Of a stretch of DNA of 64,000 bases, positions 2 to 41,966 are shown piece after piece (positions within the stretch are counted from its first letter, which is position 1; each line of letters opens with the position of its first letter). The position numbers and the translations under genes are program-made. A model generated the notes under the pieces. It did no database searches. It was not told where the DNA came from and saw only the letters and a list, made by a program, of their open reading frames with translations. The stretch lies in assembly GCA_029931905.1 (NCBI GenBank), contig JAOZRH010000001.1, forward strand, positions 19,031 to 83,030, written 5' to 3'. This stretch comes from Fidelibacterota bacterium (GTDB lineage: Bacteria; Fidelibacterota; Fidelibacteria; Fidelibacterales; Fidelibacteraceae).

Positions 2-910
2 TCAACACAGTTCAATGTTATACGCAATGCTTCCGGTTTTATAGAGTTTAATCACCCACTAACTTCAACCGAACTACATAAACTTAAGAAAAATAAACAA
101 AAATGTCATTCTAAAGAATTGATTCAGGACTTAGATTTGTCAGAAGAAGTAAAAAAGAGATATTATTGCCCTTATGACAAAGCAATAAAAACATGTAAAC
201 AAAAAGCACGAAATAAATTTAGATTAAGTTTAACTAATGAAGTTGTTTTTAATGTATATTTACAGGGATTTACAGAAATACAATATATTATTAAACATTT
301 ACAATATTTTAATGATTTGGCATTTGTCCACAAAGGGCATAAAATTCAAATATTTAAAAAAATAGATAGTGTTATTATTGGTGATATTGGATTTGGTGTA
401 GAGTATATGGTAAGTAGTGTGTATGACAAATTGTTATTAGAATATGTTGAAACTTTAAAAAATATTTATCCATTTACCCATTTTAATTTAACGAATTTAA
501 TATTTAATTTTTATTTAATTTACAAAAGTTCTAATAGTGATAGTAAAGAATTTTTAAGTTATTTAACATTTTTACATTTTGAATTGATTAAGTCTATATT
601 GGTTAATAAGTATTTTACTTCTTGTAAAACAGATGAAGTAGTTGAGCAATTTTATACAGGGAGATTAGATACAGTAGTGATGGACCAAACTGAGCTATTA
701 ATGGTTTTTTTAAATGGGATACATTCTTTACCAGATAATGATACTGAGTTTACAAGTTTTATGGTAGGGTATTATAAGATGTTTGTGTATATAAGGAATT
801 TATTAAACCGTGAAGTAAAGAAGTGTGCACAAGATTATTTTCATACTAAGATAAATCGGATAGACATAGTGAGTTATGATAAGGAGTATTGTGATCAATA
901 TGTGGGATAA
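2..910 (+). CDS. hypothetical protein, 5' partial
   Basis: Track ORF 119..910 starts at a TTG, but the same frame has no stop of any kind back to nt 2. It ends TAA at 908-910 and has no in-frame TAG. Confidence 0.6.
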   Translation, partial: STQFNVIRNASGFIEFNHPLTSTELHKLKKNKQKCHSKELIQDLDLSEEVKKRYYCPYDKAIKTCKQKARNKFRLSLTNEVVFNVYLQGFTEIQYIIKHLQYFNDLAFVHKGHKIQIFKKIDSVIIGDIGFGVEYMVSSVYDKLLLEYVETLKNIYPFTHFNLTNLIFNFYLIYKSSNSDSKEFLSYLTFLHFELIKSILVNKYFTSCKTDEVVEQFYTGRLDTVVMDQTELLMVFLNGIHSLPDNDTEFTSFMVGYYKMFVYIRNLLNREVKKCAQDYFHTKINRIDIVSYDKEYCDQYVG

Positions 911-1142
911 TAGATATAAGAAGTTACAATTTTTGGCTGAGTGTAAGCACAATGATAATGTAAGGGTGACGGAGTTAATGGAGAAGGGTCATATTACACA
1001 GAGTGAAGGTAAGGTAATTCATCAACGCATTTTAAATTATTACAATGCAGATATTAGCATAGGTGATATTAGATATGCTATTAATAAGGGGAGTAAATGT
1101 GGTGGACAAATATCAGAAGATGATAATGGAGTTACAAAATAA
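876..1142 (+). CDS. small hypothetical protein (alternative start ATG 900 preceded by AAGGAG at 881-886)
   Basis: Track ORF with TAA stop that overlaps the end of the upstream gene. It shares a '...YYN' C-terminal pattern with the next small ORF. Confidence 0.5.
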   Translation: MIRSIVINMWDNRYKKLQFLAECKHNDNVRVTELMEKGHITQSEGKVIHQRILNYYNADISIGDIRYAINKGSKCGGQISEDDNGVTK

Positions 1143-1314
1143 TATTAAGAAGCGTAGATCAGAGGCTATATTATTAAGAGATCAAGGTTTTATTACCACA
1201 GAGATGTTACAAAGGTTATATACTAAGATTAATGATTATTATAATCCTTCTATCGAAGCTATCAGAGAGCAGCAGAAAATATATTATAGAAAGACATGCA
1301 CAATAACCGAATAA
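1063..1314 (+). CDS. small hypothetical protein, paralog-like of 876..1142 (real start probably ATG 1120 or 1126)
   Basis: Track ORF with TAA stop. 'GFITTEMLQRLYTKINDYYN' resembles 'GHITQSEGKVIHQRILNYYN' in the upstream ORF. Confidence 0.5.
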   Translation: MILDMLLIRGVNVVDKYQKMIMELQNNIKKRRSEAILLRDQGFITTEMLQRLYTKINDYYNPSIEAIREQQKIYYRKTCTITE

Positions 1315-1440
1315 TAGCATGACAGAATAACCTAAATCTTATAGGAAATAAATGTTATAATATTGAGTTTAATTAATATGATATATCTATAGTAGGTATA
1401 TAGGATAATAAATATAACATGGAAGAATAGGGTTTATAAA

Positions 1441-1635
1441 ATGGTATTAGAAGAAGTATAGGGGCGTATTGAGAATGAATTGGAGAATGAGGGTCTAAAT
1501 ACAGAAGATATAGTTGATTATGAAGTTGAAATGGATTTAGGGGAGGTCTGTCATAATCAGGGTATTATAGACACATTTGAAGTAATGATAGATAAGAAGG
1601 ACCGGATAGTAAGGGTTATGATGGAGCTATATTAA
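1441..1635 (+). CDS. possible small acidic protein (64 codons) containing one in-frame TAG
   Basis: ATG at 1441, TAG at codon 7, TAA at 1633-1635 three nt before the helicase ATG. It is missing from the track because of the TAG. Confidence 0.35.
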
Positions 1636-1638
1636 TAT

Positions 1639-4600
1639 ATGTTTTGTTTAATACACAAGAATAAGTTTGATGGTAAGTTAAAGGGTATGGTTCATCAGGT
1701 AATATACGAGAATGATCATACCTTTTTCTTTCCAAGGCACATTAGACGTTATTATGATTATTCTTATATAGATGGTTGGGTAGATCCTAAGTTTAGTATA
1801 GTAAAGCCAAAGGAGTTTAAGTTTACATCTAAGTTAAGGGATGCACAGGTAGATATGAGTGCTGACATATTTGATTCCTTTGCAGAAACAGGATATATTC
1901 ATGGTATTATACAGGCGAGACCGGGAACTGGTAAATGTTTTAAGATTGATACACCTATATTAATGTATGATGGGTCTATTAAGATGGTTCAGGATATTAT
2001 TAATGGTGATCTTGTTATGGGACCGGATAGTAAACCAAGAATTGCATCTGGTGTTAATGTTGGGTATGGTGATATGTATGAAGTAATTCCTGATAAGGGG
2101 GATTCATTTACATGTAATTATGATCATATACTGAGTTTAAAAAGTTCATATCATGATAGTAAACAATATCCATTTGATTCTATAACAAATATATCTATTA
2201 AGGATTATCTTAAGCAGACAAATAGATTTAAAGCTAAGATGAAGTTATGGCGAACTGGTGTTGAGTTTCCTACAGTAGATATTCTGTTTGATCCTTATAT
2301 TATTGGTGCACATTTAGGTGATGGTACTAAGAAAGAAATTTGTTCAATTAGAAATGATTTTAGATTTTATGTAAAAGAACATTTAATAACTGAGAATAAT
2401 GAACGTAATATACCTAACGAATATTTAATTAATGATCGTGAAGTACGGTTACAGTTATTAGCTGGTATTATTGACACTAATGGTAATTTAAGTTCTGATG
2501 GATATGAAGTATTTTGTAAGGATGAACATTTTGCTGATCAGATTTGTTTTTTAAGTAGAAGTCTTGGGTATGCATGTTATAAAAAAGAAAAGGTTATAGG
2601 AACTGAAATCCATTATAAATGTTTTATATCTGGTTATATTAATGAAATTCCTTGTGAATATAAGAAAGCACCAGAATGTAAGCAAATTAAGGATGTATTA
2701 AAAACTGGTTTCGAAGTTAAATATATTGGTAAAGATAATTATTATGGATTTACATTAGATAAAGATCATCTATATTTGATGGGAGATTTCACAGTAACTC
2801 ATAATACAGTATTAGGGATTTATTTAGCACATAAGTTAAATGTTGTTACTTTAATAGTTATAGACAATAAGAAGATTGTTGAGCAGTGGATAGATGAAAT
2901 GCTTAGACATACAGATTTAGAAAGGTCTGACATTGGTACTATTAAGGGTGATGTATTTGATGTAGATGACAAAGTTATTATAGTGAGTACTCCACAGACT
3001 TTGAGCAGCAAATTTAAGAATGCTAATAAAACATTTTATCCTAAGTTCAGGGATATTGGTGTTGGTTTGGTGATATGGGATGAATGTAAGTCTGGTGATA
3101 CAGAATTATTAACGGAACATGGTTGGCAGCGGTTTGACAAATTGGATAAGAGTGTTAAGGTTGCACAATTCAATCATATTACCAGAGAGATTTCTTTTGT
3201 AAAGCCATTACGTTATATTGAGAATGATTATAAAGGTAAGTTGGTTCATCTTAAGAGTAGAAATATTGATGATTTATCAACACCAAATCACGAACAACCA
3301 TTATATCTTAGTGGTAAGTATGAAAAGAGAATAGTAGATAATGTAAAATTTAATTATTATACAAAAATACCTATACATGGAAAAGGTGTAGGGGATTTAG
3401 AGTTCACAGATTACCATAGATTCCTTATTATGTTACAAGCAGATGGTACCATTCAATACGAAACTAAAGATGGGGATCATTATCAAGTATGTTTTACTTT
3501 TAGTAAACAGCGTAAAATTGATAGATTAAAGCAATTAGTTGAGTCATTAGGTTATTCGTGGGGAATTTCCAATGATACTGGTTCTATTAATGAGAATGTT
3601 AAAGACCGTACTCGATTTATGATATATCCAAAAGACAGAATGTATAAGCATTTTAATGAATGGCTTGATATATCAAATATTTCATATGAGTTTGCTAATA
3701 AGTTTATTAATGAACTTGTATTGTGGGATGGTAGTACTAAAGGTGGTAATTTATATTATTCTACTACAGATAGTGGTAATGCAGATATTGTTCAAATAGT
3801 TGCATTATTTGGTGGTTACAAATGTTCACGTGGTATACAGATTGATAATAGGAAAGAAAGTTATAAAGATGTTCATAGGTTTTATTTTTATAAAGATGTG
3901 GATGCTGCTACACAGAGTATAAAAAAGGATTACGTTGATTATGATGGTAAAGTATATTGTGTGACGGTGCCAGATGGTAATATTATTGTAAGACGTAATA
4001 ATAAAGTTTCTATTACTGGTAATTGTCATGTAATAGCGAATGAGTGGGCAGCAGGATCTTTATTATTTAATACCCCTAATTTATTAGGTATGAGTGCAAC
4101 CCCATGGCATGGTAAAGACAAAGAGATTTTAATGTATTCTATATTTGGTGAAGTAGTGACTAAGTATGGAGAGTACGATTTTTCTCCTAAATATAAAATG
4201 GTTGAGTATGATTCTCTTACAGGTGACAAGGATGGTAAGAGGGTGAACTATTTATGGAAGAATAACTTTAATATGGCACGATCAGTATATAATAGGGTTT
4301 TATTAAAGAGTAAGGCGTGGGTTGATATATGTGTAGAGATTATGAAGTACAATATGGAAGCTGATCCTAATAATAGAATGATTGTTATAGTTTTTACAGA
4401 GAAGCAGATAAATGTGTTATATGATGCAGCAATTAAAGCTGGGTTAGAACCTATCAAATTTTATGCAAAGCAACGGGAAGTTGATAAGGATAAAGATAGG
4501 TTATTGATTGCAACAATGGCATATGGTAGTAAGGCATTTGATTATAAGCAATTAAATCGTATGTTATTGGCTATTCCTATATTAGGTAAGAAAGCAATGG

Positions 4601-4791
4601 TACAATCCATAGGGAGGATTTTGCGTGAATGTTCAGGTAAAGTAGATGCTGAAGTTTGGGATTTATATGATATGGGGTCTGGTTACCGGGGATTATTTCT
4701 TAATACTATAGATCAGAAGTTAAGAATTATTAACAATGAGTATGATGATGTAATCATTGAAAGAGGTAGCATAGAACATTTAACGAAATAA
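1639..4791 (+). CDS. SF2 DECH-box DNA/RNA helicase precursor with two inteins (spliced extein about 447 aa)
   Basis: Motif I is ARPGTGK|T, restored after removing intein 1. Motif II is VIWDE|CH, restored after removing intein 2. Motif III is MSATP and motif VI is QSIGRILRE. The 1050 codons contain no in-frame TAG and end in TAA. Confidence 0.9.
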   Translation: MFCLIHKNKFDGKLKGMVHQVIYENDHTFFFPRHIRRYYDYSYIDGWVDPKFSIVKPKEFKFTSKLRDAQVDMSADIFDSFAETGYIHGIIQARPGTGKCFKIDTPILMYDGSIKMVQDIINGDLVMGPDSKPRIASGVNVGYGDMYEVIPDKGDSFTCNYDHILSLKSSYHDSKQYPFDSITNISIKDYLKQTNRFKAKMKLWRTGVEFPTVDILFDPYIIGAHLGDGTKKEICSIRNDFRFYVKEHLITENNERNIPNEYLINDREVRLQLLAGIIDTNGNLSSDGYEVFCKDEHFADQICFLSRSLGYACYKKEKVIGTEIHYKCFISGYINEIPCEYKKAPECKQIKDVLKTGFEVKYIGKDNYYGFTLDKDHLYLMGDFTVTHNTVLGIYLAHKLNVVTLIVIDNKKIVEQWIDEMLRHTDLERSDIGTIKGDVFDVDDKVIIVSTPQTLSSKFKNANKTFYPKFRDIGVGLVIWDECKSGDTELLTEHGWQRFDKLDKSVKVAQFNHITREISFVKPLRYIENDYKGKLVHLKSRNIDDLSTPNHEQPLYLSGKYEKRIVDNVKFNYYTKIPIHGKGVGDLEFTDYHRFLIMLQADGTIQYETKDGDHYQVCFTFSKQRKIDRLKQLVESLGYSWGISNDTGSINENVKDRTRFMIYPKDRMYKHFNEWLDISNISYEFANKFINELVLWDGSTKGGNLYYSTTDSGNADIVQIVALFGGYKCSRGIQIDNRKESYKDVHRFYFYKDVDAATQSIKKDYVDYDGKVYCVTVPDGNIIVRRNNKVSITGNCHVIANEWAAGSLLFNTPNLLGMSATPWHGKDKEILMYSIFGEVVTKYGEYDFSPKYKMVEYDSLTGDKDGKRVNYLWKNNFNMARSVYNRVLLKSKAWVDICVEIMKYNMEADPNNRMIVIVFTEKQINVLYDAAIKAGLEPIKFYAKQREVDKDKDRLLIATMAYGSKAFDYKQLNRMLLAIPILGKKAMVQSIGRILRECSGKVDAEVWDLYDMGSGYRGLFLNTIDQKLRIINNEYDDVIIERGSIEHLTK
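1936..2805 (+). mobile_element. intein 1 (290 aa) inserted in the helicase Walker A/P-loop, with a LAGLIDADG-type homing endonuclease remnant
   Basis: Starts with Cys right after GTGK (CFKIDTPILMYDG). Block B-like TCNYDH is present. LAGLIDADG-like IIGAHLGDGT and LLAGIIDTNGN are present. Ends ...FTVTHN followed by Thr (+1). Confidence 0.85.
3085..4023 (+). mobile_element. intein 2 (313 aa) inserted in helicase motif II (DE|CH), with a LAGLIDADG-type homing endonuclease domain
   Basis: Starts with Cys after VIWDE (CKSGDTELLTEHG). Block B-like STPNHE is present. LAGLIDADG-like FLIMLQADGT and NELVLWDGST are present. Ends ...VSITGN followed by Cys (+1), which regenerates DECH. Confidence 0.8.
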
Positions 4792-4842
4792 GGAATGTCT
4801 TGTCTGTTCAGATTTGAATTAATTATAAAAGATTAACTAACT

Positions 4843-4858
4843 ATTGGTAAATTAAATG
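4843..4858 (+). promoter_or_regulatory. initiation-region motif ATTGGTAAATTAAATG (includes the start codon)
   Basis: The same 16-mer occurs at 24327-24342. Close variants lie at 15949-15965, at 32659-32673, and on the minus strand at 37611-37626. Confidence 0.5.
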
Positions 4859-6121
4859 ATATATTCAAGAGCAGACAAGGTTGAACAATATCTATCCCAT
4901 TATAATATCACTGGGGTAGAAGCTTAGAAGGGCAGTTGGAACACACGTCTTTATCTAACGAACATCCATACCAATAAGCCATATAAATTAGAGATCCAGA
5001 ATCCTCTTTATAATATTTTATCAGGGGAGGATAATCATCATGAGTTTGATCCAAAGTCATTAAATGGTCATAATTATTTATTACGAAATATGATATTTGA
5101 TTATACAGATGTTGGGATGACAGAGTTTATTGCTAATTTTCTTAACACAGAGTATTATAAGCGGTATGGTACATTAGAGCATGAAGCAGGGAAGAAATAG
5201 TCGAGTGAATATTTTTCTTTCTTAGAGATGAAAGATATAGAATTGATTAAAGGTTTAGCCGGTTTCAAGGATAATGTTATTACTGGTGTATATGGTAATT
5301 TCTTTACCATGGATGATGACACATTGAGATTTACATTTAAGCCTACCACACCTATTGTTGAGAATATTAACAAGGTTCATTTTGCCCAATCCTTTATATT
5401 TACCAAGGATGGATGGCAGTATCCCACATATTACATTATATATACTAAAAAAGGATCAACAGATGTTTAGTTTGAGTAGACTAATTTATTAGTTAATTCA
5501 ATTACTAACAATGGATCTGTTGTTGTTAATTTATCACAGTTATTTGGTGATAAGTGGACAGACATTTCATCTGATATGGATACATTATCTGGATTTGGTA
5601 CAGAATGGTTTATTGTGCCATCCTTATTCACATGTGCAATTATGCGGAACACACCTACTGGAATATTACGATACATTCCCATTAATTTTACAAAACAATT
5701 TTTTAATATTACATTTAATAATATGGATATTGAAGCAAAGGCTATAAGGGATGGTGATAGTGGTGAATAGATAAACACTGAACCCAATTTTAATGATAGT
5801 AATGCAGTATTAGAGGTAATTGATAACACTTCGTCGGAATAGACAGAATCAAAGAAGGCTTCCTTTGTATATAAGGATGATCGTATAGTTCCTTGGTCAA
5901 GTATGGAGCATGTTGAATTTTTAGATCAGTTATTAAAGTTGTCAAGTACAGCAGAATATTTTAATGATGTATTATTTTCATTAGAGGATTCGGAGTTTCA
6001 GTTTCCTATATATTTAATTACACCGATAGATAACGAAGTGAGTCATGGACCTTATGGCACTTAGTTTAATGACGATTATATTGACAATGTTGGTGTAGTA
6101 AGCGTGGGTGGTGGCGAATGA
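4856..6121 (+). CDS. hypothetical protein, 421 aa, 7 in-frame TAG
   Basis: ATG at 4856. Track ORFs 5228..5470 and 5576..5770 share the frame and are joined only by TAG. The terminal TGA at 6119-6121 overlaps the next ATG (ATGA). Confidence 0.8.
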
Positions 6122-6633
6122 TTTATAAATGGTATATAAATAATGATTTTAAGTTATTGGTAAGGACGTGGGTATTTTTAACAATGGATATGTACGTAAT
6201 GTCATTTAAAGATCCTAACACAGATTATTTCTATGATCAGTTGTCAAGTAAGTTATTTAATAATGAACAAGATATTGACGTTATGAAATATTGGTATAAT
6301 CCAGTTAAGATGGTGGATGTTGTTGAAAGTGTAACACAGAAGACAGAAACAGACATACATGTTGGTAAGAAGAATTATACAATGATTCACATTCAGTCAC
6401 ATGAAGATATTTATAATATGTCATTTTCTTCTGATATTAAGGATGTTTTCATAGTGTAGATGAAACGTTTTGATAAAGACAATTATCTGGCACCAGTATG
6501 TATAAGGGTTGATGAAGAATGGTTAAATTATTATGAGCACAACCTTGATTTAAGTAATTTATTACAAGAGAGAAGTAATGTAAGTGATGTCAACAATTTG
6601 TTATCTAATTTTAGAAAAGCAATATTCATATAA
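6118..6633 (+). CDS. hypothetical protein, 171 aa, 1 in-frame TAG
   Basis: Track ORF 6118..6459 continues past TAG 6457 to TAA at 6631-6633. Confidence 0.75.
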
Positions 6634-6645
6634 GGGAAAAATATA

Positions 6646-7275
6646 ATGCAAGAATTTAATGTAGATTTAGGGACTAAAGAGATTTACAGTCTTAAGAATT
6701 AGAGCTTTGATATTGCTAATAATGGATCAGCAGATTTATCAGTTGATTCTATTAACTTGTCAAGTGATAATATCGTTATGACATTTACAAAGACACCATT
6801 TTAGATTATTCAGAATATGACATATTCTTTATCGGGATATTTAAAGATATTGACATTTGAAGATTCTACTGCAGTAGATTATATTGAATGTGATGTATCA
6901 TGGTTAGACGAATATGGTGATACACAGACTGATGTTTACCGGTATTATTTAAATTACGTTGGTTCTATTAATCATCAGTATGTTCAGACCTTTGATATAA
7001 GGAATATAAACTACATTAAAGACATGTTGGTGATCCGAATGGATTTTAATGAGGCATTTCCAGATCAGAATTATCCAAATATGATAATAAAAGCAATTGA
7101 TTCAACTCCATATCATATATTCCCTAAGATATATAGAATGAGCGCAACGTCAATTGTGTATGTATATAAGGACAATGATATAAATAATATAATAATTGAT
7201 GACAAGATTCAGATGAATGTAATATTTAATCAACCTGAATTGGATATTCATAAAATTTCATATAGGTCAATATAA
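6646..7275 (+). CDS. hypothetical protein, 209 aa, 2 in-frame TAG
   Basis: ATG at 6646 preceded by GGGAAAAA. In frame with track ORF 6817..7275. TAA stop. Confidence 0.75.
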
Positions 7276-7276
7276 C

Positions 7277-10200
7277 ATGATAAGTTTTCAGTCAGATAAT
7301 TTAGATTATAGAATATACAAGGTGGATGATTTTGATATATCACTCCACATGAATAGTGAGAAACTTGATCATATTTTTAAAGAGTATCTATATTTCACAT
7401 TATCAGAGATGATTGGTGATGATGGTTAGGTGGCGTTTAATTATGAATTAAGGACTGATAAGCTTGATGATTTATATAAAGACGAAGTTCTTGGATCAGT
7501 TTTAATTTTTTGGTTAAGTTATCATTATATTTTAGATATTCTTAACATGTCAAAAATACAATTGATATCAAGTGTAAATCATCCAAATTTTGTTCATCTT
7601 TATTTTAACCAGAAAATAACAGATTCTACTTATGGTATATTAGCAAATTATAATAAGGGAACAGAATTTTATACAGATCACATTTTTGGTTTACGAAATC
7701 TTAAGTATAGTACATATGATGTACAGGAACAATCCAGATCTTGGTTCATGACAAACGAAAAGACTGAATTCACAAAGTATTTGGGCAATAATATCACTAT
7801 AATCACTGAAAATTTTATTACTGATCTGGATAAAGAACAGGCAATGGATAATATATTTGGTGCATATACTGGTACTGGTAATGATGTTACAATCATTTTA
7901 AAAGAAGATATAAAGAGTGCATTGCGGTTTGGTTTTACATTAACAATGAATGGACTTGAATATACAATTATATTCTCAACGAATTAGAACAATTACATTA
8001 TTGCTAATCGATTAAAAGAATTATTTAAGTTAATGGATACCAGAGTTAATAATGTAATCTGGAAATGGAAAGAAATTTCATATTTATATGTAGAAGACAC
8101 GGACTTTGTGACCGATTATATTGATCCTGAGTTTAAAGAAGGGAATATAATTGTTGCAAATTCATATGTAGATACATGGGTTAAGAATAAATATAATGCC
8201 GGATCTACTGTATTTAATTAGCAACCAACATTTGATAATGCTGTATTTGATATATTAGATGATATAAAAATGTTTGTTGATGAAATTGGTAAAGGGATTG
8301 TATATTTTGATTTTGATAATACAATGTTACATACTACTATTGGTAATCAAGATGATTACAGTTTTTTAGATATTTATGGATATGACGAAGAAAGACAAAG
8401 ACCGATCCTTCTTGGTATAAATAAGGACTATGAGAGCGCGGGTAGTTAGTTTAGATCAATTAAAGTTATATCAGGCGGTATTACAGCAATAAACAATGAC
8501 GAATTGGTTAATGACATGACATCGGCAGACTATGAATATCTAATGCAGACTACATTAGTAGATGTTAAGCACATTCATTATATGGACATGTTTGCTATGA
8601 TAGCAGATGTATATGGCTTTACACCACGAACACCAACAGCATTTCAGTTATTTAATCCAGTTGATAGTGATAGAAAATTCTTTTATAATGATGGTGAATA
8701 TGATGCAAAAGGTAAAACCATTGATGCATAGGTTTATAAACAAAGTAAACCATATGATCAAACTACAACCGAATCATTATACGTTTTTACAATGAAAACA
8801 TTTATAATTGAACCCTTATCAAATTGGAATGGTGATAGTAGTTAGGGTAAGATACGAGATATTGAATTTAGATTAAAAGGTGAGAAAGTCGAAATTCCAT
8901 ATGAACAAATTACGGATTTTGGATATGATGATATCAGACCTATTATTGTTAATAGTTATAAAACTGGCTGTCAGACATCATCATCAAATTATTTCAATTC
9001 ATATAATAATATGAGATCAGGTATTCATTTTGATCCCCCAATTCAATTCGATCAACTTATTATTAATAATTACCATTGTAATGGCGGTGATAGTAATTTT
9101 GGTATAGCAAATTGTAGATTTTTAATAGCAGATTTTAAATTTGAAGCAGATGGTTTTGAAGAATCTTCACATTTACTTGATTTAATATTTGAAGGAGAAA
9201 TAAGAGAACACATTCCATCTAATACCGCAGATGATATAATTATACCATTAACTATACCAGCTTCAATTACTGATAATACATCTGTCCCAATGTTTACATT
9301 ACTTGATGTTGCATCATTTGGATTAGATCAGACTGATACAAATTCATGTGCTATTCCATATGATGCCATTATATCACTATTTAACGATGTAACAGACGAA
9401 GGATCAATGTTAGAATTTATTCATGAATGGTTTTAGATTGATGGTGATTCAAATGAGATTTCGTTTGATGCAGTAGAATATAATAATTTATTTATAAAAT
9501 ATGTTCCAATTGTATCAGGAAATGGAATGTTTCATATTTCTCACAGAAATAGTGTTGTTGGTTATCGTACTATCAATGATAGATTGTTACATGCATTGTC
9601 ATTGGATGTAAAGAAAGATATATTAGAAGATCTTTGGAATGACACTGATAATATGGTCAAATATAAATGTTTAATAGGAACAGATGTTATTACACAGATT
9701 AATGATGATAGTGAATTTAATACAAATGTCAATTGGTCCCGTGATATATTTACTAATGGTGTTGAACTAAAAGAATTACATACATTGTCAAATTCAACTA
9801 AGTCTGAGTTCCTTTCAATGTTAATGAATGAAAATATGTATCATAGTGCCATAGAATTGTTTTCTGGAAGATATATATGCGCATTATTTAAATTAGAGGA
9901 TGTGATACAAAACTCATACAACAATTCTATTATTTTTAATAAGGTTATTGGTAGTGATTAGTATTCATATTATAGTTTGAAATCTACTGGTAATGATATT
10001 ACATTTTCTGGATATTTCATTAGTTCATATACGGATAATCATTATGCATGGTGGTTACTTGATCTTGATAATGGTAAGATTAAAAATATTGCAACAACAC
10101 CTTTTGAATTTAATGCCGGGACCACGAATCCTATTATTACAAATTTGGAAGTTATTGAAAATAGGGAATTGTATGTAGTTGATAAAGCAGACTATGATAC

Positions 10201-10348
10201 AATTTATAATAACTGGTTAAATGTTTTCAAGATTTATGATATTTTGCCAGTATATCAGATTGTATATGCAAGGAAACCATTCGATATTACAAAGAATCAA
10301 ATTTTCAACGTTTATGCAAACGAATACACATTAGTAAGTGAGGTATAA
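7277..10348 (+). CDS. large hypothetical (virion-type) protein, 1023 aa, 8 in-frame TAG
   Basis: Track ORFs 7430, 8033, 8504, 9011, 9527 and 9977 are all in one frame with only TAG between them. ATG at 7277, TAA at 10346-10348. Confidence 0.85.
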
Positions 10349-10351
10349 TCA

Positions 10352-10774
10352 ATGGATTATGGACAGTTAAAAGATATTGTTAGTGTTAAGAGTTTTAATA
10401 TTATTTAGAATTTGATCAATCGACCAAGATTAGAATTATATACAACTAATTTTACTAATTTAGATGATTCTATAAATGTAGATGACCCATATGATAATGA
10501 TGTGGTTGACATGACCAGTATCACACAGGATGAACTAACATTTATAAAAGAAGTGGATTGCATTTATACATATGACAAGGAAGTTATCACAAGCAATGAT
10601 GATAGTTTGGGGTCTATATATTCATTAATGATTTATATGAGATCTGATGATGTTCCATCTTATATTTTGAATAGTAAGAATTCTATTATAGTCAGGTTTT
10701 CGGGTATTGATTATAAAGCAACAAACTTTCAAAATGCATATGACATTATTGTTCAAGCAACCTTAAAAAGATAA
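10352..10774 (+). CDS. hypothetical protein, 140 aa, 1 in-frame TAG
   Basis: ATG at 10352, in frame with track ORF 10412..10774. TAA stop. Confidence 0.7.
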
Positions 10775-11749
10775 TGACATATTACAAATACTTTTATTTT
10801 TCATGATATGAATATGGTTGTATAGGTGCATATATCTATTTTTAAAGGCATGTGCTTCCCTATACCCAATTTTTTGTTTAATGAAGTCTATTAATTCAAG
10901 ATAGTTTGTTGTATATCTCAATTTTTCAATAAAGTCATTAGATAGATTAGTGTGTTTATTAGATTTAATGAATCTATGCATTAATTTCCATGATTTTAAA
11001 TATACATTGCTACAAGGGAAAGTCTTTTCTTTATCAAATCCAAACACGATCATATCATTATATATAAATGTATTAATCTAAGCAAAGTCAACATTACCGA
11101 TCAAAAATTCAAATGCAACTTTGTCATGCCATAGTGGATCAGTCTGAGATACCACCGATAATAGGTGTGATACATCTTTATGATAATGACCACAAATTGA
11201 AGTTGGATACATATATTGTAAATCTTTTGAAATATATGTAAGTTCATTGTTTACATTTCTAATTGTTCCATGTGCTAAGTGTGATAATCCTAATAATTTA
11301 GCAACAGCAAGTGCAGCCATTTCACGATATGCACTAAATCCTTTTAATCCAACATTCTAATTTAAATTCCCTGATAATAATTGATTAAACCGTTGATTAT
11401 ATTCAGCAATAGTAAGAAATTTGTTATTTTTATTTAATCCCAAATACTCATGTCCAAATCCTATTCTCTTATGTCTTGTAATTAGACCATCTGATTTTAT
11501 TGGTTTTGAATATGCTGTGACTATTTCATCAGTAGTTGGTGATATTAATTTTATTTTAAAACAGTTTGATCTATATGTTATTTTATCTGGTTTATTAGAC
11601 AATCTTCTGATCATATTTGATGTAGAATTTTCATAAAAATTAGGATCAATATCCTATGTACTTAGAATTGGATCAAGAGTTTTCCATATAAATGATTTAT
11701 CTGGATCAATATTAATACTTTCCATATAAGAGTGATCAATTATTTTCAT
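10763..11749 (-). CDS. hypothetical protein, 328 aa, 3 in-frame TAG; weak PI3/4-kinase- or HipA-like motifs
   Basis: Track ORFs 11357..11614, 11078..11320 and 10763..11053 share one frame and are joined by TAG. The upstream in-frame ATG at 11749 overlaps the end of the previous gene. Motifs SAYREMAALAVAKLLGL and FLIGNVDFA(TAG)IN are present. TAA stop. Confidence 0.7.
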
Positions 11750-11945
11750 GTTCAGCAAGTTCTTTTAATTCTTTTGTAAATAATTTTCTACATTTTACTC
11801 TTTTATTTACAATATTACATATTTCAAACCCAAGACATTCGTCTTTTAAATGTGGTTTACCATGAATACAGTGGTGATAGCAGTGTTCAACTTTTGTAGT
11901 ACAGTTACATACCACCATTTTATTATTAGATTTTGTGTGTGTCAT
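11736..11945 (-). CDS. small Cys/His-rich (probable zinc-binding) protein, 69 aa
   Basis: Track ORF with CNC...HCYHHCIHG...C...C...C pattern. TGA stop. AAAGGA lies upstream of the ATG. Confidence 0.6.
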   Translation of the reverse strand: MTHTKSNNKMVVCNCTTKVEHCYHHCIHGKPHLKDECLGFEICNIVNKRVKCRKLFTKELKELAEHENN

Positions 11946-12010
11946 ATAATTAATCCTTTATTTAATTTTGAAACACTATACCATATGATATGATATTAAT
12001 CAATATAAAA

Positions 12011-12040
12011 AAATGCTTTACTAATTTAAATAAAGCATTT
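12011..12040 (-). terminator. rho-independent-type hairpin after the 1282-aa gene
   Basis: Perfect 10-bp stem AAATGCTTTA/TAAAGCATTT with a 10-nt loop. It starts 2 nt past the TAA at 12042-12044 and is followed on the minus strand by a T-run. Confidence 0.6.
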
Positions 12041-12041
12041 C

Positions 12042-15000
12042 TTAAATGTATTTTGGTTTTCCAAGGTGATTAACCAAATTTTTATAATATTCAGCAAGTT
12101 TATTTTCAACTGATACTAATGGAGAATTAAAATCTACACCTAATCCATGTAAACTAATTTCTTTAATATAATTTCCATTATCAAAATCAAGTACAAGTGT
12201 ATTTGAAAACTCTGATATTCCATGTGGATAAAAATAAACGGGGATATCAAATGTCTGTGATGGCTATAAATTAATTGTCATATTTTCAAGTGATTGAAGT
12301 TCTACATCACCATTAGTATTAATATTCAATACAACTTTGTTAGTAGAATAATTTTTTACAGTAACTTCATCTGTTTTAAAATGATTAATCTGACAATAAC
12401 CAAAGTTTATATAGTCACTATTAAATGAGAAATATTCACGTTTAACGTCCGTTAGTTCGATTTTGACGATAATATCATATGTGAACATGCGTTTAGATTT
12501 TAAGTCTTGCATTTCGAATTTAAACATGTCTGTATAGACTGCTGTATTATTAGTAAGTTTTTTATTATTTAACTATATAGGAAGTTGAATGTTAGTATCA
12601 ACTTTAATTGGTAAATTTTGTCCTGCTAACGGAATCATAAAAGGTGAATCATTATCAAGTTTGGTTATACTGGTAATAATAAATGGGGTAAGACCTAAGT
12701 TTTTAATTTCAAATGTATCATATCTCATAGTCCTATCTTTTTTATCAATAGCAAGGAACCCAAAATCAACAACTGATTTACTAAACTAAGGAAGTGCATG
12801 ATCAGACATTGCATTACCCATAAGTTCTGCAATGATATGAGTATTTTGAGTTTTATATTGTTTTGTATAATCTGTATTACGGAGAACAAATGTTTCTAAC
12901 ATATCTTTAATTTTGATATCAACAAATCCAATTTTCTTACCAGTTGAAGTTGGTGTGAACATGGTTTCTACATAATTTATTGTATTAGGAAATAATATCA
13001 CATTATTTTCAACTAAGAATTCATTTTTGTCATACCCAAGTTTAATAACATCAATCAAACTCAAGTCTTCTCCAAAGTTTGTAAGTTTGATAAACTCTTT
13101 ATCAACAGAATTAAGTGGTGCAATAAATTCAATCCCACGTGCATTTTCCATAAGTACCATCACATCTTTTAATTTGGTATTTACAAAGATAACAACCGGT
13201 AAATATACTTCACCAAGATCTGTACTTAAAATAATAAATCCAGTACTTCTACCATATTCTCTTCCTTGAAAGTCAAAATCCATTTTAATAGGATTCTTAT
13301 TAGTAAGTTTATATGGTAATGTAATATTATTAATTTGTTCAGTCAACATATCGGTCATTCCTAATTGAGATGTTGGTAGATCAAATTTAATATCATTAAC
13401 AATAATGTCAATATCGGTTACATTTTTAATATTTAATGTTCTTGATTTTGGAACATTTATATTTAAAGATAAGAAGTATTTATTATTTCTTACATAAAAA
13501 TCAGATTCATCAAATTTAATAGCTTGTTCAGCATCAAGTGTGGTGCATATAATTTCATATGGCACATCAATAAATGGAATATTGGGAATATTTGTATACA
13601 ATCTAACCTTAAATTGATATAATCTTTCTTCCGTAAGATCGAGATCAAATGAAAACAGCGATCCTTTTTGTGATGATAATAAACTAAATGGAATTTTAGT
13701 TTTGTCAATTATAAATTCATTATCTGTAATATAAGTATCTTCATTATTATCATAGTTCATTAATTTGACATCAGTAATTGCACCATTGTTACCAAAATCC
13801 TTTCCTTTTATAATAGAGTTTGATGTTGTTTTAAATAATTTTAGGAATATAGTGGATCGCACCCTTGGTTTTACATATGTAATATCTTGTGATTTTTCAT
13901 ATGCAAGGGAAACTTGAGTATTTAATATTCTAAAACTGGTTTTTCCTGAATCAGTAAAAATGTATTTACCATCATTATATGTAATTTTAATAATAAATAC
14001 TTTACCAAGAACTTTATTTTCTGTTGGATTAAGTCTATTAACTTTCAATGTTAATATTATTGGATTAAGTCCATTAAGGTTGGTGTTTTCATTTTTTATA
14101 TTATCAATTTTAAATGATAAATAGTCTGTTATTTTACCTTTGTCATCATAATCAACTGGATCATACTCTTTATTACTATCAACATATTCACCATCTGGAA
14201 GAATTGCATATAAATATTTTAACGTATCTGCATGATGTCCCCCTAATAATACATTACATTTTAGAAGTGCATCCGCATCACCAGCAAACGCAGTTTCATA
14301 ATCATTGATATCAATAAATTCAACTTTATCAATTTTAGCATTGGTATTACCAGTATTATATAATACAAGGGAAAGATATTCAGTCTGACCAGTATGCCCA
14401 ATGTGAGTATTTAGTTTAGGCTAATTTGCCATATCTGCAATATCTTTTTTTTCTTGTTCACCACTTAAGTATATTCCTGAATCACTCTAATAGAAATCAT
14501 TTAATACCAATTTGGGATCAAGTGTTAAATTTGGATATATATTAATTGGCACTTCCCGTTGACCATCTACTTCATTATATGTAAAATCTACCATAATCGA
14601 ATTAGAATAATCTTCGGTTAGATTAATGGTATCAACGAATATATTGAATGGGTTTCTATCTAAATATTTTTCATCTTGTGGAATTATTTTACGTGATGGT
14701 ATGGCATCTGACGTAAGAGTAACATCATTATTTGCTGTATGTACATCTTCAGTTTTCTAAGAAACATCATTGATAATCATTTCTGTTTCTTCCTATGATC
14801 CTTCGCGAGCATAATTCTTAAATGGATACATAAATATTTTAACTTGTCCAGTATAATAATCAGATGGATGACTATGAATTTTCATTTTAGCAGGAGATGG
14901 CATTATCATATTTCTATTAAAACTTGGATCAAGTGTCATTTTAATGAACTCAGCAATTGCAGGTTCATCAGATACACCATTTTCATCAGATAGTGGCACA

Positions 15001-15890
15001 TTTGCAATGAAAGAAATATTAGTATACACTTTTAAATTTAATTTATAAGGTGTACGATGCTTTGGTGATAAATTTAATATAATTGACATACCAACAGGGA
15101 ATGTATATACTGGCAAATATAGTGGTGGTGCATTTGTAAATAATTCATGCTAATGTACTGATATCTTTGAAATTATTAAATTATAGATACTTCCACTTAT
15201 ACGAAGTTTGCACTATACATCATTTTCTTTTTGATCAATCTAAACTTTATAAGAACCATCAGAATTATCACATAAAGTAACAATGTCAGATGTAAATAAT
15301 TCAGGACAAACCATTGCACGTTTATATCCATATATCCCACATTCATCCGGTATGTCTTCTAATAATTCAGTTGCATGAATACCTTCACCATAGAATGCAA
15401 CTTCTTCAATTTCAAATTTTTCTAAATTAAATGTTTTGAGATATTTTTCAAGTTCAGTCCATTCATCAATACCTTTCATATTGAATTCTATATCAGTAAA
15501 TGTATTTGGATCAATATAACCACTTACTGTTCTACTATAGTTATCCAATTTTACCATAACAGGGCGTTTATTTAGATTATAATGCTATTTACTTAAATTA
15601 CCAAACTCACTATAATCATATGAATCAGTTTTAATAATTTGTTCAAATACAATATCACCATCAAATTTTGTTAAGTCATCATCTGGTTCAATGATAGTAA
15701 AGTATTCAGCATCTTGGAAAGGTTTTATTAATATTCCCAAATCATCATTAAAAGATGTATCATGAACAGCGAATTTATCATGAACAGATTCATTATCACC
15801 CGTCAATATTTGTTGTTCAAGATTATACAATTTGATTGGGTAATAATTGTGATTATAAATAGATGTGCGTAGTATCATATAATTTACCAT
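12042..15890 (-). CDS. giant hypothetical (virion-type) protein, 1282 aa, about 11 in-frame TAG
   Basis: Track ORFs 15585..15890, 15240..15557, 14793..15116, 12786..14048 and 12264..12527 are all in the same frame. I hand-translated every gap and found only TAG. ATG at 15890 with a TAA just upstream. TAA stop at 12042-12044. Confidence 0.85.
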
Positions 15891-15962
15891 GTCAATGTTA
15901 ATTTTATATAATTAATTACACAAATATACTACATTAAAATAAAAAATAATTGGTAAATAACT

Positions 15963-18900
15963 ATGCGTCTGACAAATATATATAAAAACATTATCACAAA
16001 CCTTGAAACGTACTTATTAAATTCTATAATAGAACCGATCAATGTTACTTTAAGAAATCTGTCTCCATCGCCATATAATTACTCAGATTCATCTTAGTAG
16101 AGAAAGTATGATGGAAAATACCAAGTGCAGATTGAAACAATGGACCATAGTCATATCATATATTGGTCACCTAAATATCAACAATATCAATATGTAGCAG
16201 TACGACCCATATATGAATCATTTGGAACACCAATTCCCACCGATCGTAGTATAACAAACCCCGAATATTCAATATTATTAAAAAACAATAGTAAATTATA
16301 TCAAGTGTGGAATCCTGAATAGCTGGATAAATATTATGATACCATATTCACTTATAATGAATTTGATTACGATAGAAAATTTGAGAATAGGAATTCGGAA
16401 TATCTTTAGAATTTCTTTGGTGATGAAATATTAGATCTTTTGATTATAGAGTCTAAAATTACTGTTACTGCAGAGAAATCTAATGAACATGATAGTATAA
16501 ATGAATATTTTGAATTATATTATAAGGAAACGATTAAAACTGGTATACCACAATACACACTTGATGACCCAGATACCATTAATAAAGGAATGGGTTCACT
16601 TACTCAAGTTGATTCATCTACATATTCTTATAACTTTGATACTACATATATAAAGATGCATTTAGGTGAAGTTAATATTTATAAATCATTATATAAAATT
16701 TATAACTATTTGACAGATCGGGATGAAGATTCTGTTGATATTGTATCTGTTAATAATGAATATAGTTTTCTATTTGCTTTGAATAGTGACAATCAATATA
16801 ATGCACTTCCTGCATTTTTTAATAATGGAGATTCAATTACACTAAATCCAGAAAATATTGAAGATGCTGAAACAATTCTTGGAACTGAATTATATAATCT
16901 ATTGATGTATGTTAATGAAATTGCTTTAGAAACTGGTTCACATAGATCATTGTCAGCAACCTCTGACGGAACAAATGTTTTAATAGATTTTAATTATGGC
17001 GAATATTTATATTAGGAAAAAATATTAACACATTTGGAATCATTTGCATTACGTTCAGTTGTATTAAGTAAAAAATATGATAATATTAATGAAATTTCTG
17101 AACCTGTAATATTTGATAGTTATGGCAATTGTCACATTAAAGTTGATACTAAATAGTTTATATTTAGGAATTCTACAAAACGTGATAACTCATTTTTTAA
17201 AATAAAAGAAAGGGATGTTGTTAAAATATTTGATTATAGATTTGAAAATAATCTTCCTACGTGGCATGAGGATTGGATTCCTGAGTATTTTGAAATTAAT
17301 CTTTCTGATGGAAATGGACCAGATGCAAAAGATGTTATATATTCAGTTACAGATTATGTGAGTGATACAACATCAATGATATCATTTGATTTAGACTATA
17401 AGCAGCATACAGATTTCATCGACTTTGTTCCAGTATATAGAAACATGTCATTATATAAAGATTTTTTAACATAGGAAGATTCTACAATTCATAATAGATT
17501 GGAATTGTTTAATTATGATTTACATTTTATTAACTTTAAAGTCAATGATAAAATATTTAATAATGTAATTATTGATGATTCGGAAAGATTTTCAATTTCT
17601 GGCATTGCAATTGATCTTGATAATTCTAAATCAAGTGCAATTGTAGAACTAATGGATAGTTCATTTTCTGGTGGTAAGGTATTAAGTACATTAAGAAGAT
17701 ATTCAAAAAATGACTCAATTAGATGTGAAGAATACCCATTACCACTATTATCAAATGAGATGAATAATTTCTTTAATATAAATTCTATTAATACATGTAA
17801 CACAATTCAAGTAGAAACACAATATACAAGCGAATTTGTTGATAATATGTGGCGTACTGGTTTTGATTTTATGACAGTTCGTAATGAATTAAGTGCAATG
17901 GTGGATGATACATCTACAACCATTGGTACATATGATAGAACAGTATATAACCTTTATAATAGAATGTTTGGTAATTTTGATTTAGCACAAATTAGAAATC
18001 AAAAGCACATGTATGTCATTTTCATGATTAAAGATAAGTATACTGGTAAAAAGGATTTCATGCAAGTTGATTTAATGAATGCGCCAGTACCAATTGCAAA
18101 TATATCTTCATTTACAAATGTTTTTAATGATAAAGAAAAAGAAATGTTTCTACATAGTAAAGAAAAATTCCAATATGAAACTAACAAACAACATAATGCA
18201 TTTTTTAGTAACTATGAAGAAGATCCATATACTGAGACAGTTTCATTTAAATCATCATTAATATCAGAATGTAATTATGATACAACCGACGTTATGCCAG
18301 TTTACATCACTGATATAAATATTAAAAATGGTAACTATTTAAATGGAAACATTGAAACCCTTTATATAAGAAATGCAAGAGCACTATCTGATGATATGAC
18401 CACAATAGTGAATCTTGATGCAACTATTGGTGCAATGGATTTCATTATTACTGATAGGGATATTGCAGTTGATCTTAGTACTATTTTTGGTACATATAAA
18501 GTTATGGATTATCTCGAAATTGAAGTTGTTTATAATAAATTCTATAAAGCATTTGATTATTTAGATACATTTTCATTACAATTCAATTTCAATCTTAAAA
18601 ATTTTCAAGTTACACAGCAATATGGAATTAATGCATCATTTGTTGCAGTTGGTGCAAATTCAATTAACTGGACCAGATTTAATATCAAACCACCTAAGAA
18701 TATAGAATGTCTGCCACAGGAAGTTTATAATGAATCAATGGCGCTGGAAGTTTTTGATATTGATGATTATGTTTGGGATTACGTACCAGATGATAAACGG
18801 TGTATATTATTAAATAACTTTGTTGGTAATAATTTTAATAATACATTGGATGTAACAGAATTTGATTCTACTACATTTGATACATCTGACCTTGCTATTA

Positions 18901-22490: not shown

Positions 22491-22493
22491 TAA

Positions 22494-35460: not shown

Positions 35461-35470
35461 TTAGTTTCCC

Positions 35471-36655: not shown

Positions 36656-36668
36656 TTATCAATACCTA

Positions 36669-37613: not shown

Positions 37614-37697
37614 TAATTTCTACCATTTTTATTAATCAATCTTTTTTTAATAAATTAATTAAAAAAAAAGGATTAATTTATATAAAAGGTTTACTAT

Positions 37698-38555: not shown

Positions 38556-38566
38556 GGAATGATTAT

Positions 38567-40787: not shown

Positions 40788-40814
40788 ATTAATTAAATAA
40801 AAAAGGAAATATAC

Positions 40815-41960: not shown

Positions 41961-41966
41961 TTTTAA

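What the first reader, a model, noticed from the sequence alone, without database searches (positions are those of the whole stretch)
2..4791. The replication-type module is nearly free of in-frame TAG, unlike the structural genes
The helicase precursor (1050 codons, including both inteins) and the partial upstream gene (about 300 codons) contain no in-frame TAG. Downstream genes carry roughly one per 100-200 codons; for example, the 421-codon gene starting at 4856 has 7. This asymmetry fits the published idea that recoded phages keep early genes readable under the host's standard code and confine the reassigned codon to late genes, as a timing or lysis-control device. The switch occurs within 65 nt (4792-4855).
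Basis: partly seen in the sequence, partly recalled or inferred. Interest (0 to 1): 0.6.

Follow-up and report, generated by a model that had tools for sequence, protein, structure and literature searches.

The report
TAG-free helicase in a recoded phage
In a very large sediment phage that reads the stop codon TAG as an amino acid (most likely tryptophan), the helicase and the other DNA-replication genes avoid TAG completely while the neighbouring virion-type genes use it freely, a pattern already published for other recoded phages.

Summary
The intein-bearing SF2 helicase (1639-4791, 1050 codons) has 0 in-frame TAG against 13 TGG. The next gene (4856-6121) has 7 TAG, and the window averages 0.78 TAG per 100 codons (P about 3e-5).

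Two caveats apply. The partial upstream gene has no Trp codon in the window, so it says nothing. A conserved 64-codon ORF (1441-1635), ending 3 nt before the helicase start, has TAG at codon 7.

I walked a near-identical 271-kb scaffold to cover about 36% of the genome. The split is bimodal:
- SF2 helicase, UvrD, PolB, NrdG and NrdD: 0 TAG / 55 TGG.
- Virion-type genes: 144 TAG / 101 TGG (Fisher P 1e-18).
- No gene with six or more Trp codons falls between a TAG share of 0 and 0.33.

Relatives keep PolB and UvrD TAG-free. The helicase is TAG-free in two relatives, but has 1 TAG in a third and 4 in a fourth.

Three relatives carry a tRNA(CUA) 1.3-3.8 kb upstream of the helicase. One also has an RF2 gene there.

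TAG aligns with Trp, not Gln.

The published model (standard-code early genes, recoded late genes) fits. Expression timing, the host's code and this phage's own suppressor tRNA remain untested.

The parts
2..910 (+). 3' part (302 codons) of a 374-codon gene of unknown function. It has 0 TAG and 0 TGG in the window, so it is uninformative for the TAG/TGG comparison.
   Evidence: The full gene is L001 607-1731. Orthologues in L002 (339 aa) and L029 (347 aa) also have no Trp codon. No Pfam, PHROG or NCBIfam hit.
876..1142 (+). Small ORF of 88 aa (called as 80 aa in other assemblies), 0 TAG / 1 TGG, function unknown.
1441..1635 (+). Conserved 64-codon acidic mini-ORF with TAG at codon 7 (1459-1461). 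Its TAA stop lies 3 nt before the helicase ATG.
   Evidence: Orthologues of 63-67 codons sit in the same position in L002, L005, L029 and L028. Codon 7 is TAG in four of the five genomes and TTG in L028.
1639..4791 (+). SF2 (ResIII/DEAD-like) helicase precursor, 1050 codons, 0 TAG / 13 TGG. It is the last TAG-free gene before the TAG-using block.
   Evidence: Pfam ResIII, Hom_end_hint and LAGLIDADG; phrog_16 DNA helicase. Codon counts. Orthologue alignment A4.
1936..2805 (+). Intein 1 (290 aa) inserted in Walker A (GTGK|C...HN|T). 0 TAG / 1 TGG.
   Evidence: Intein-less orthologues read GFGKT at this position.
3085..4023 (+). Intein 2 (313 aa) inserted in motif II (DE|C...GN|CH). 0 TAG / 4 TGG. 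L002 has the same intein.
4792..4855 (+). 64-nt intergenic gap where TAG use begins. It contains AATTAATTA followed by ATTGGTAAATTAAATG. The second element recurs directly before the starts at 15963 and 24340. Both elements appear in diverged form in the L005 gap.
   Evidence: (9 copies of TTGGTAAAT against 2.0 expected; no shuffle reached 9). Its function as a promoter or ribosome-binding site is inferred, not shown.
4856..6121 (+). First TAG-using gene: 421 codons, 7 TAG / 5 TGG, first TAG at codon 24. Function unknown.
   Evidence: No Pfam, PHROG, NCBIfam, PDB-profile or GenBank-phage hit. The AlphaFold model had pLDDT 42 and was unusable. In homologues, Q (a TAG read as Gln by the database) alternates with W at conserved columns.
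6118..10774 (+). Four co-directional, tightly packed TAG-using genes of unknown function (171, 209, 1023 and 140 codons; together 12 TAG / 17 TGG). They are syntenic in all relatives.
10763..64000 (.). The rest of the TAG-using block, with giant proteins of 1282-2771 aa and an Ig-like domain protein. Together with g1314 just beyond the window end and the collagen-like fibre further on, this class totals 144 TAG / 101 TGG.
   Evidence: The virion label rests on protein size, the Ig-like domain and earlier notes. I identified no capsid, portal or terminase.

Best explanation
The window lies in a roughly 271-kb, AT-rich phage from hydrothermal or marine sediment. The phage decodes UAG as a sense codon, most likely Trp.

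Its genes fall into two sharply separated classes.
- DNA-replication and nucleotide-metabolism genes (SF2 helicase, UvrD, PolB, NrdD, NrdG and several neighbours) encode every Trp as TGG and contain no TAG. A cell that still terminates at UAG can therefore translate them.
- Virion-type genes use TAG for about 60% of their Trp codons. They can only be completed once UAG is suppressed.

The helicase at 1639-4791, with both its inteins, is the last standard-code gene before a TAG-using block of about 62 kb.

In relatives, a suppressor tRNA(CUA) lies 1.3-3.8 kb upstream on the same strand. One relative also has an RF2-type release factor there, which terminates at UAA and UGA but not UAG. The gene order is therefore: standard-code replication genes, then code-change genes, then the helicase cluster, then recoded genes.

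What is shown: the codon partition, its conservation in relatives, and the tRNA and RF2 in relatives. What is inferred: that selection keeps TAG out of genes needed before, or independently of, the code switch; that the host uses the standard code; and that this phage carries the same tRNA and RF2.
For: 1. Helicase 0 TAG / 13 TGG against a window TAG share of 0.55.

2. About 97 kb of the near-identical scaffold gives these counts:
- UvrD 0/7, PolB 0/10, NrdG 0/4, NrdD 0/21.
- Other genes outside the virion block: RlaP 0/3, 183-aa 0/6, 693-aa 0/6, DUF1937 0/4, T5orf172 0/3, DUF3228 0/3.
- Virion-type class 144/101; Fisher P 1.3e-18.

3. Bimodality: genes with six or more Trp codons have a TAG share of 0.00 (6 genes) or 0.33-0.92 (20 genes).

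4. General codon bias does not explain it. Genes 4856-7275 have the same G-ending codon share (0.41-0.51) as the helicase (0.40), yet 10 TAG / 10 TGG.

5. Conservation in relatives:
- In L017 and L018, the family-annotated non-virion genes (PolB, UvrD, RlaP and others) total 0/21 and 0/13, while nearby ORFs read through TAG.
- Helicase orthologues in four relatives total 5 TAG / 25 TGG, against 86/26 in their five downstream genes (P 2e-9).

6. Code-change genes in relatives:
- tRNA(CUA) in L002, L028 and L029 (ARAGORN; Rfam 58-59 bits).
- An RF2 with SPF and GGQ motifs in L028.

7. 35 of 60 sampled genes (58%) carry TAG. That lies inside the 26-71% range reported for recoded phages of standard-code hosts and below the roughly 90% reported when the host shares the code.

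8. TAG behaves as Trp:
- Residues opposite TAG in orthologue alignments mirror those opposite TGG. W makes up 11% of them, against 1.6% opposite Tyr; Gln is about 1%.
- TAG+TGG is 1.41% of window codons, a normal Trp level.
- TAG in L002 falls on invariant Trp columns of the helicase.
Against: - Nothing here measures when any gene is expressed.
- The host is unknown.
- This phage's own tRNA(CUA) and RF2 were not found. There is none in the window, none in the tRNA island and none within 606 nt upstream of the 374-codon gene. The 41 kb upstream of the window could not be fetched.
- The helicase is not strictly protected. It has 4 TAG in L002, two of them at conserved Trp columns, and 1 in L005. 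P0003 probably has two or more.
- A TAG-bearing mini-ORF ends 3 nt before the helicase start, so TAG-using and TAG-free genes are probably co-transcribed here.
- Inside TAG-using genes, TAG shows no bias towards the 5' end. It behaves as an ordinary synonymous codon, not as a placed gate.
- The genes right after the helicase are of unknown function, and I identified no lysis gene.
- Only about 36% of the genome was examined.
Confidence: 0.7

Rival explanations
1. Efficiency or fidelity, not timing. UAG suppression always competes with termination, so catalytic and intein-bearing proteins that must be full-length avoid TAG whenever they are expressed. Structural genes tolerate some truncation.
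For: The TAG-free set is rich in long enzymes, three of them with inteins (helicase, UvrD, NrdD). TAG shows no positional 'gate' pattern within genes. The TAG-bearing mini-ORF is probably on the same transcript as the helicase.
Against: The longest and presumably most abundant proteins carry the most TAGs (14 in 2175 codons, 12 in 1314 codons, 11 in 1282 codons). An efficiency cost should hit those hardest. Small TAG-free genes of no obvious catalytic role also exist.
Confidence: 0.15
2. History, not selection. The replication genes were acquired recently from standard-code phages or hosts and have not yet drifted from TGG to TAG.
For: Replication genes are the ones with recognisable homologues elsewhere. 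Inteins are mobile elements.
Against: The same genes sit in the same synteny and stay TAG-free in relatives at only 43-54% protein identity. Synonymous sites would be saturated at that distance. TGG-to-TAG change at conserved Trp columns did happen in the L002 helicase, so the path is open. The helicase's GC content (0.308) matches its neighbours.
Confidence: 0.07
3. Local mutational or codon-usage bias. A G-rich coding strand at the left end of the window favours TGG over TAG.
For: GC skew is +0.35 over 1-4000, and the share of G-ending codons is raised over 876-7275.
Against: Genes 4856-7275 share that bias but have 10 TAG / 10 TGG. PolB, NrdD and UvrD lie in regions of ordinary skew and are also TAG-free.
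Confidence: 0.03
4. The host itself reads UAG as Trp, and the TAG-free genes are unrelated to any code conflict.
For: No suppressor tRNA was found in the sampled part of this phage.
Against: A shared code gives no reason for 0 of 55 Trp codons in the replication genes (and none in the other TAG-free genes outside the virion block) to be TAG. Relatives carry their own tRNA(CUA) and RF2. Only 58% of genes carry TAG, against about 90% reported for phages that share a recoded host's code.
Confidence: 0.05

Closest known systems
Stop-codon-recoded phages with standard-code replication genes and recoded structural and lysis genes (crAss-like, Agate, Jade, Garnet and others; Borges et al., bioRxiv 10.1101/2021.08.26.457843)
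   Same: - In-frame stop codons are confined to one class of genes.
- The replication machinery stays in standard code.
- The genome is low in GC, and TAG is not used as a stop.
- Relatives have a phage-encoded suppressor tRNA and RF2 next to the boundary. This resembles the Jade 'code change module', which is itself written in standard code.
   Different: - TAG aligns with Trp here. That paper reports only TAG to Gln and TGA to Trp for phages whose code differs from the host's.
- The source is hydrothermal or marine sediment, not gut.
- No lysis cassette was identified.
- The virion-block proteins have no PHROG, Pfam or GenBank-phage homologues.
Lak megaphages (TAG-recoded, some with RF2)
   Same: Very large genome, TAG recoding, and a phage-encoded RF2 (in the relative L028).
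   Different: In Lak phages the replication genes are reported as mostly in the alternative code. Here they are strictly TAG-free. I found no sequence relationship.
Genetic code 15 crAss-like phages validated by metaproteomics (Peters et al., PMC9523058)
   Same: TAG is read as an amino acid in phage genes.
   Different: Code 15 is TAG=Gln. Here Gln accounts for about 1% of residues aligned to TAG. No proteomic data exist for this phage.

Membership tests
Recoded phage with a standard-code early class and an alternative-code late class (Borges et al. model) | Many genes are interrupted by one in-frame stop codon that restores long ORFs when read as sense | tested here: met
   Under table 11 the ORFs are fragmented. 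With TAG read as sense, 35 genes tile the window.
Recoded phage with a standard-code early class and an alternative-code late class (Borges et al. model) | The recoded codon is absent from the replication machinery and frequent in structural and lysis genes | tested here: met
   0 TAG / 55 TGG against 144 / 101, with a bimodal distribution. The structural label is only partly verified, and no lysis genes were identified.
Recoded phage with a standard-code early class and an alternative-code late class (Borges et al. model) | Phage-encoded suppressor tRNA for the recoded stop codon | tested here: inconclusive
   A tRNA(CUA) is present in relatives L002/L003, L028 and L029, upstream of the helicase cluster. 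None was found in the roughly 36% of this phage that I could read.
Recoded phage with a standard-code early class and an alternative-code late class (Borges et al. model) | Complementary release factor (RF2 for TAG recoding) | tested here: inconclusive
   An RF2-type gene with SPF and GGQ motifs is present in relative L028.
Recoded phage with a standard-code early class and an alternative-code late class (Borges et al. model) | The host uses the standard code | not testable with these tools
   The host is unknown; the samples are sediment and vent metagenomes. Indirect support comes from the TAG-free class and from 58% of genes carrying TAG.
Recoded phage with a standard-code early class and an alternative-code late class (Borges et al. 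model) | TAG-free genes are expressed before TAG-using genes | not testable with these tools
   No RNA runs hold this sequence, and there is no cultured host.
Genetic code 15 (TAG = Gln) | TAG positions align with Gln in homologues | tested here: not met
   Residues opposite TAG are TAG 20%, Tyr 17%, Phe 13%, Trp 11% and Gln about 1%. The profile matches the one opposite TGG. TAG falls on invariant Trp columns.
SF2 helicase (ResIII / DEAD-like) | Walker A and DExH motifs plus a C-terminal helicase domain | tested here: met
   Removing the inteins restores GTGK|T and DE|CH. Pfam ResIII and phrog_16 match. Intein-less orthologues align end to end.
Intein | Hint domain with an N-terminal Cys, a C-terminal Asn and a +1 nucleophile, inserted in a conserved host motif and absent from orthologues | tested here: met
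   Pfam Hom_end_hint, Hom_end and LAGLIDADG_3. The boundaries are C...HN|T and C...GN|C. Orthologues lack one or both inserts.

The most novel reading that the evidence does not exclude
This lineage performs a UAG-to-Trp code switch during infection, a reassignment not reported for phages whose code differs from their host's. The gene order mirrors the programme: standard-code replication genes, then RF2 and tRNA(CUA), then a transition zone, then recoded virion genes. The transition zone holds an almost Trp-free gene, a mini-ORF whose codon 7 is UAG, and the SF2 helicase.

A more speculative add-on (about 10%): the UAG-bearing mini-ORF, which ends 3 nt before the helicase start, couples helicase translation to the state of the switch.
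Probability: 0.5. Interest if true: 0.65.

Novelty: new variant of a known kind. Interest (0 to 1): 0.45.

Why it matters
The partition itself repeats a published pattern, so it mainly adds an independent, unusually clean example. The split is all-or-nothing, and it comes from an unrelated, non-gut, jumbo-phage lineage.

Three things add value.
- The recoded codon seems to mean Trp, not Gln. The 'early genes stay standard' rule would then hold regardless of which amino acid is inserted.
- In relatives the suppressor tRNA and RF2 sit right at the boundary. That gives concrete parts to clone and test.
- The helicase's variable TAG content among relatives marks it as a boundary gene. It could help date when the code switch acts during infection.

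For annotation, such genomes need a mixed reading: TAG as Trp, with a TAG-free class of genes.

Tried and rejected
- The scaffold was never served for the helicase or the 374-codon gene. The 41 kb upstream of the window stayed unread.

**Function of genes 4856-10774 and most of the virion block: no result**
- PHROGs, Pfam and NCBIfam.
- PDB profile searches.
- tblastn against GenBank phages.
- An AlphaFold model of the 421-aa protein reached only pLDDT 42, so I ran no fold search.

**Searches that found little**
- The single-sequence helicase and PolB scans of IMG/VR and GTDB contigs found nothing close.
- The sigma-70 promoter and terminator scan is uninformative in this AT-rich DNA.
- Rfam found nothing but tRNAs.
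- The L002 tRNA(CUA) had no match in E. coli genomes.

**Ideas rejected**
- A helicase's TAG count tracks its distance from the tRNA. L002 and L029 both have the tRNA about 1.3 kb upstream, but 4 and 0 TAG respectively.
- TAGs are placed early in genes as gates. There is no positional bias.
- The upstream protein is special because it lacks Trp. The full gene has one TGG.
- G-rich codon bias explains the TAG-free state.

Full report
**1. Checking the observation**

Under table 11 the first 12 kb break into short ORFs, except 2-910 and 1639-4791. Reading TAG as sense restores long, tightly packed genes over the whole window.

I tiled 35 genes. They hold 163 in-frame TAG in 20,984 codons (0.78 per 100) and 133 TGG.

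- The helicase, 1639-4791, has 1050 codons, no TAG and 13 TGG.
- The gene 4856-6121 has 421 codons and 7 TAG.
- The gap between them is 64 nt.

Pfam and PHROGs confirm an SF2 (ResIII-type) helicase with Hint and LAGLIDADG inserts. Removing residues 100-389 and 483-795 restores GTGKT and DECH. The exteins have 0 TAG / 8 TGG and the inteins 0/5.

The chance of zero TAG is 2.9e-4 by codon number. By Trp codons at the window's TAG share it is 3e-5.

Two caveats apply.
- The partial upstream gene has no Trp codon of either kind inside the window. The full 374-codon gene has one TGG. It tells us nothing.
- A conserved 64-codon ORF (1441-1635) has TAG at codon 7 and ends 3 nt before the helicase ATG. 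It has orthologues of the same size and position in four relatives, three of them with TAG at codon 7.

Inside the window, the 'module' is therefore one informative gene.

**2. What TAG encodes**

I made three-way alignments of nine orthologue sets (window, L002, L005).
- Residues opposite TAG are TAG 20%, Tyr 17%, Phe 13%, Trp 11% and Gln about 1%.
- This matches the profile opposite TGG.
- It does not match the profile opposite Tyr, where Trp is only 1.6%.

Other evidence agrees.
- TAG+TGG is 1.41% of codons, a normal Trp content. TGG alone is 0.63%.
- In the helicase alignment, TAG in L002 falls on invariant Trp columns.
- In the 421-aa family, database proteins translated with TAG=Gln show Q exactly where others have W.

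So TAG is most likely Trp. This agrees with earlier notes from this scan. It also makes TAG/(TAG+TGG) the right statistic.

**3. The wider genome**

Instead I used the look-up of encoding contigs to walk a 271,481-bp ENA scaffold. It differs from the window at 4 of 15,998 overlapping bases. Together with the window this covers about 97 kb, or 36% of the genome.

| Genes beyond the window end | TAG / TGG |
|---|---|
| UvrD with intein | 0 / 7 |
| PolB | 0 / 10 |
| NrdG | 0 / 4 |
| NrdD with inteins | 0 / 21 |
| RlaP | 0 / 3 |
| 183-aa gene | 0 / 6 |
| 693-aa gene | 0 / 6 |
| DUF1937 | 0 / 4 |
| T5orf172 | 0 / 3 |
| DUF3228 | 0 / 3 |
| 734-aa gene (adjacent) | 12 / 2 |
| 1314-aa gene (adjacent) | 12 / 7 |
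| Collagen-like fibre | 7 / 8 |

Pooled, the five replication or nucleotide genes have 0 TAG / 55 TGG. The virion-type class has 144/101 (Fisher P 1.3e-18).

For genes with six or more Trp codons the TAG share is either 0.00 (six genes) or 0.33-0.92 (twenty genes), with nothing between. 35 of 60 genes carry TAG.

Two controls:
- G-rich codon usage does not explain the zero class. Genes 4856-7275 have the same G-ending share as the helicase, yet 10 TAG / 10 TGG.
- Within TAG-using genes, TAG is spread like TGG (mean relative position 0.50 against 0.52, P 0.62).

**4. Relatives**

PolB homologues at 50-54% identity lie on 276-kb and 166-kb JGI contigs, L017 and L018. There, PolB, UvrD, RlaP and the other family-annotated genes total 0/21 and 0/13. 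Neighbouring ORFs read through up to 7 TAGs.

| Genome | Helicase TAG / TGG | Five downstream genes TAG / TGG |
|---|---|---|
| window | 0 / 13 | 19 / 22 |
| L028 (51% identity, both inteins) | 0 / 10 | 32 / 13 |
| L029 | 0 / 4 | 22 / 1 |
| L005 | 1 / 7 | 12 / 6 |
| L002 | 4 / 4 | 20 / 6 |

In the four relatives alone, the helicase totals 5/25 against 86/26 downstream (P 2e-9).

The depletion is therefore conserved across relatives, but not absolute. The helicase behaves like a boundary gene.

**5. Code-change genes next to the helicase**

ARAGORN finds a tRNA with anticodon CUA upstream of the helicase cluster, on the same strand, in three relatives.
- L002/L003: 1.27 kb upstream.
- L029: 1.3 kb upstream.
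- L028: 3.8 kb upstream.

Rfam scores these tRNAs at 58-59 bits, and the L002 tRNA folds as a cloverleaf.

In L028 a 376-aa TAG-free gene lies 1.1 kb before the tRNA. It is an RF2-type release factor.
- It has Pfam PCRF and RF-1 domains, and SPF and GGQ motifs.
- Its PDB matches to RF2 reach E 3.6e-75, against 1e-57 or weaker for RF1.

Further upstream are TAG-free genes, including a DnaB-like helicase.

The order in relatives is: standard-code replication genes, then RF2 and tRNA(CUA), then the almost Trp-free gene, the mini-ORF, the SF2 helicase, and finally the recoded genes.

In this phage no such tRNA exists in the window, in the tRNA island (Gly, three Met, Lys, Glu, Gln, His) or within 606 nt upstream of the 374-codon gene. 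The region further upstream could not be read.

The L002 tRNA(CUA) is most similar to annotated phage tRNA-Trp genes, but only weakly (E 3e-4 and 4e-3).

**6. Interpretation**

Borges et al. (10.1101/2021.08.26.457843) report the following.
- Recoded phages of standard-code hosts use the alternative code in structural and lysis genes.
- Use of the alternative code in replication genes varies by clade.
- 26-71% of their genes carry in-frame stops.
- Some encode suppressor tRNAs, release factors and tRNA synthetases.
- Only TAG to Gln and TGA to Trp were seen.

The present locus fits that model in every respect I could test. The exception is the residue, which looks like Trp.

The best explanation is selection against UAG in genes that must be translated before, or independently of, the phage's suppression machinery.

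I consider the rivals less likely.
- An efficiency cost is contradicted by the many TAGs in the largest virion proteins.
- Recent acquisition is contradicted by conservation of the TAG-free state at about 50% identity.
- Mutational bias is contradicted by the G3 control.
- A recoded host is contradicted by the zero class and by the tRNA and RF2 in relatives.

Still not shown: expression timing, the host's code, the function of genes 4856-10774 (no hit anywhere; the AlphaFold model had pLDDT 42), any lysis gene, and this phage's own suppressor.

**7. The boundary**

The 64-nt gap contains AATTAATTA followed by ATTGGTAAATTAAATG.
- The second element recurs immediately before the start codons at 15963 and 24340 (9 copies of TTGGTAAAT in the window against 2.0 expected).
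- Both elements appear in diverged form in the L005 gap.

This may be a shared promoter or ribosome-binding signal for TAG-using operons. That reading is inference only.

**8. Verdict**

The phenomenon is a new, clean instance of a known pattern. It comes from an uncharacterised sediment jumbo-phage lineage (PolB about 25% identical to T4-like and huge-phage enzymes; vent and sediment samples). The one unusual feature is the apparent TAG=Trp assignment.

Noticed in passing
L002 275-350; L028 6162-6237; L029 8616-8689: The three tRNA(CUA) genes share C1-G72, discriminator U73, an encoded CCA and the anticodon loop CUCUAAA, but differ widely in their D and T arms. From memory, U73 is not the usual bacterial tRNA-Trp discriminator (G73), so which synthetase charges them is an open question.
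   Followed up: partly
L028 3917-5047: A phage-encoded RF2-type release factor (SPF and GGQ motifs), written without any TAG, lies 1.1 kb upstream of the suppressor tRNA in the closest relative that has long flanks.
   Followed up: partly
window 2691-2824 (compared with L006 3055/3056): A near-identical strain (JGI 3300005264) lacks 134 nt at the end of intein 1. This splits the helicase call into 353-aa and 671-aa pieces. It is either an assembly error or a degraded intein allele.
   Followed up: no
L001 1-606; L012 1-150; L016 1-131; L002 1-385: Several independent short-read assemblies all break 130-600 nt upstream of the 374-codon gene or its orthologue. This suggests a repeat or a strain-variable region just left of the window.
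   Followed up: no
window 876-7275: These genes use G-ending purine codons far more (share 0.40-0.52) than the rest of the sampled genome (0.09-0.35). This codon-usage domain does not coincide with the TAG boundary at 4792-4855.
   Followed up: partly
window 4844-4852, 15950-15958, 24328-24336: ATTGGTAAAT(T/A)A sits 4-5 nt before three start codons of TAG-using genes, each with AATTAATT 18-31 nt further upstream. This is a candidate shared expression signal.
   Followed up: partly
L014 22855-23084; L017 5581-6129: The phage and a relative both encode a PTH2-type peptidyl-tRNA hydrolase, TAG-free. It might matter for a genome that relies on stop-codon suppression.
   Followed up: no
L014 14030-18414: The tRNA island has eight tRNAs, including three tRNA-Met(CAT), but no CUA anticodon. 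Free-standing endonuclease-type genes (T5orf172, HNH) are interspersed.
   Followed up: partly
L028 9808-9999, codon 7: The mini-ORF of L028 has TTG (Leu) where four other genomes have TAG, a one-base difference. So the TAG in this ORF is not universal.
   Followed up: partly
L029 300-1196: In relative L029 a Vsr/DUF723-type endonuclease gene carries 4 TAG inside an otherwise TAG-free stretch. This recalls the published case of a preferentially recoded homing endonuclease inserted in an early gene.
   Followed up: no
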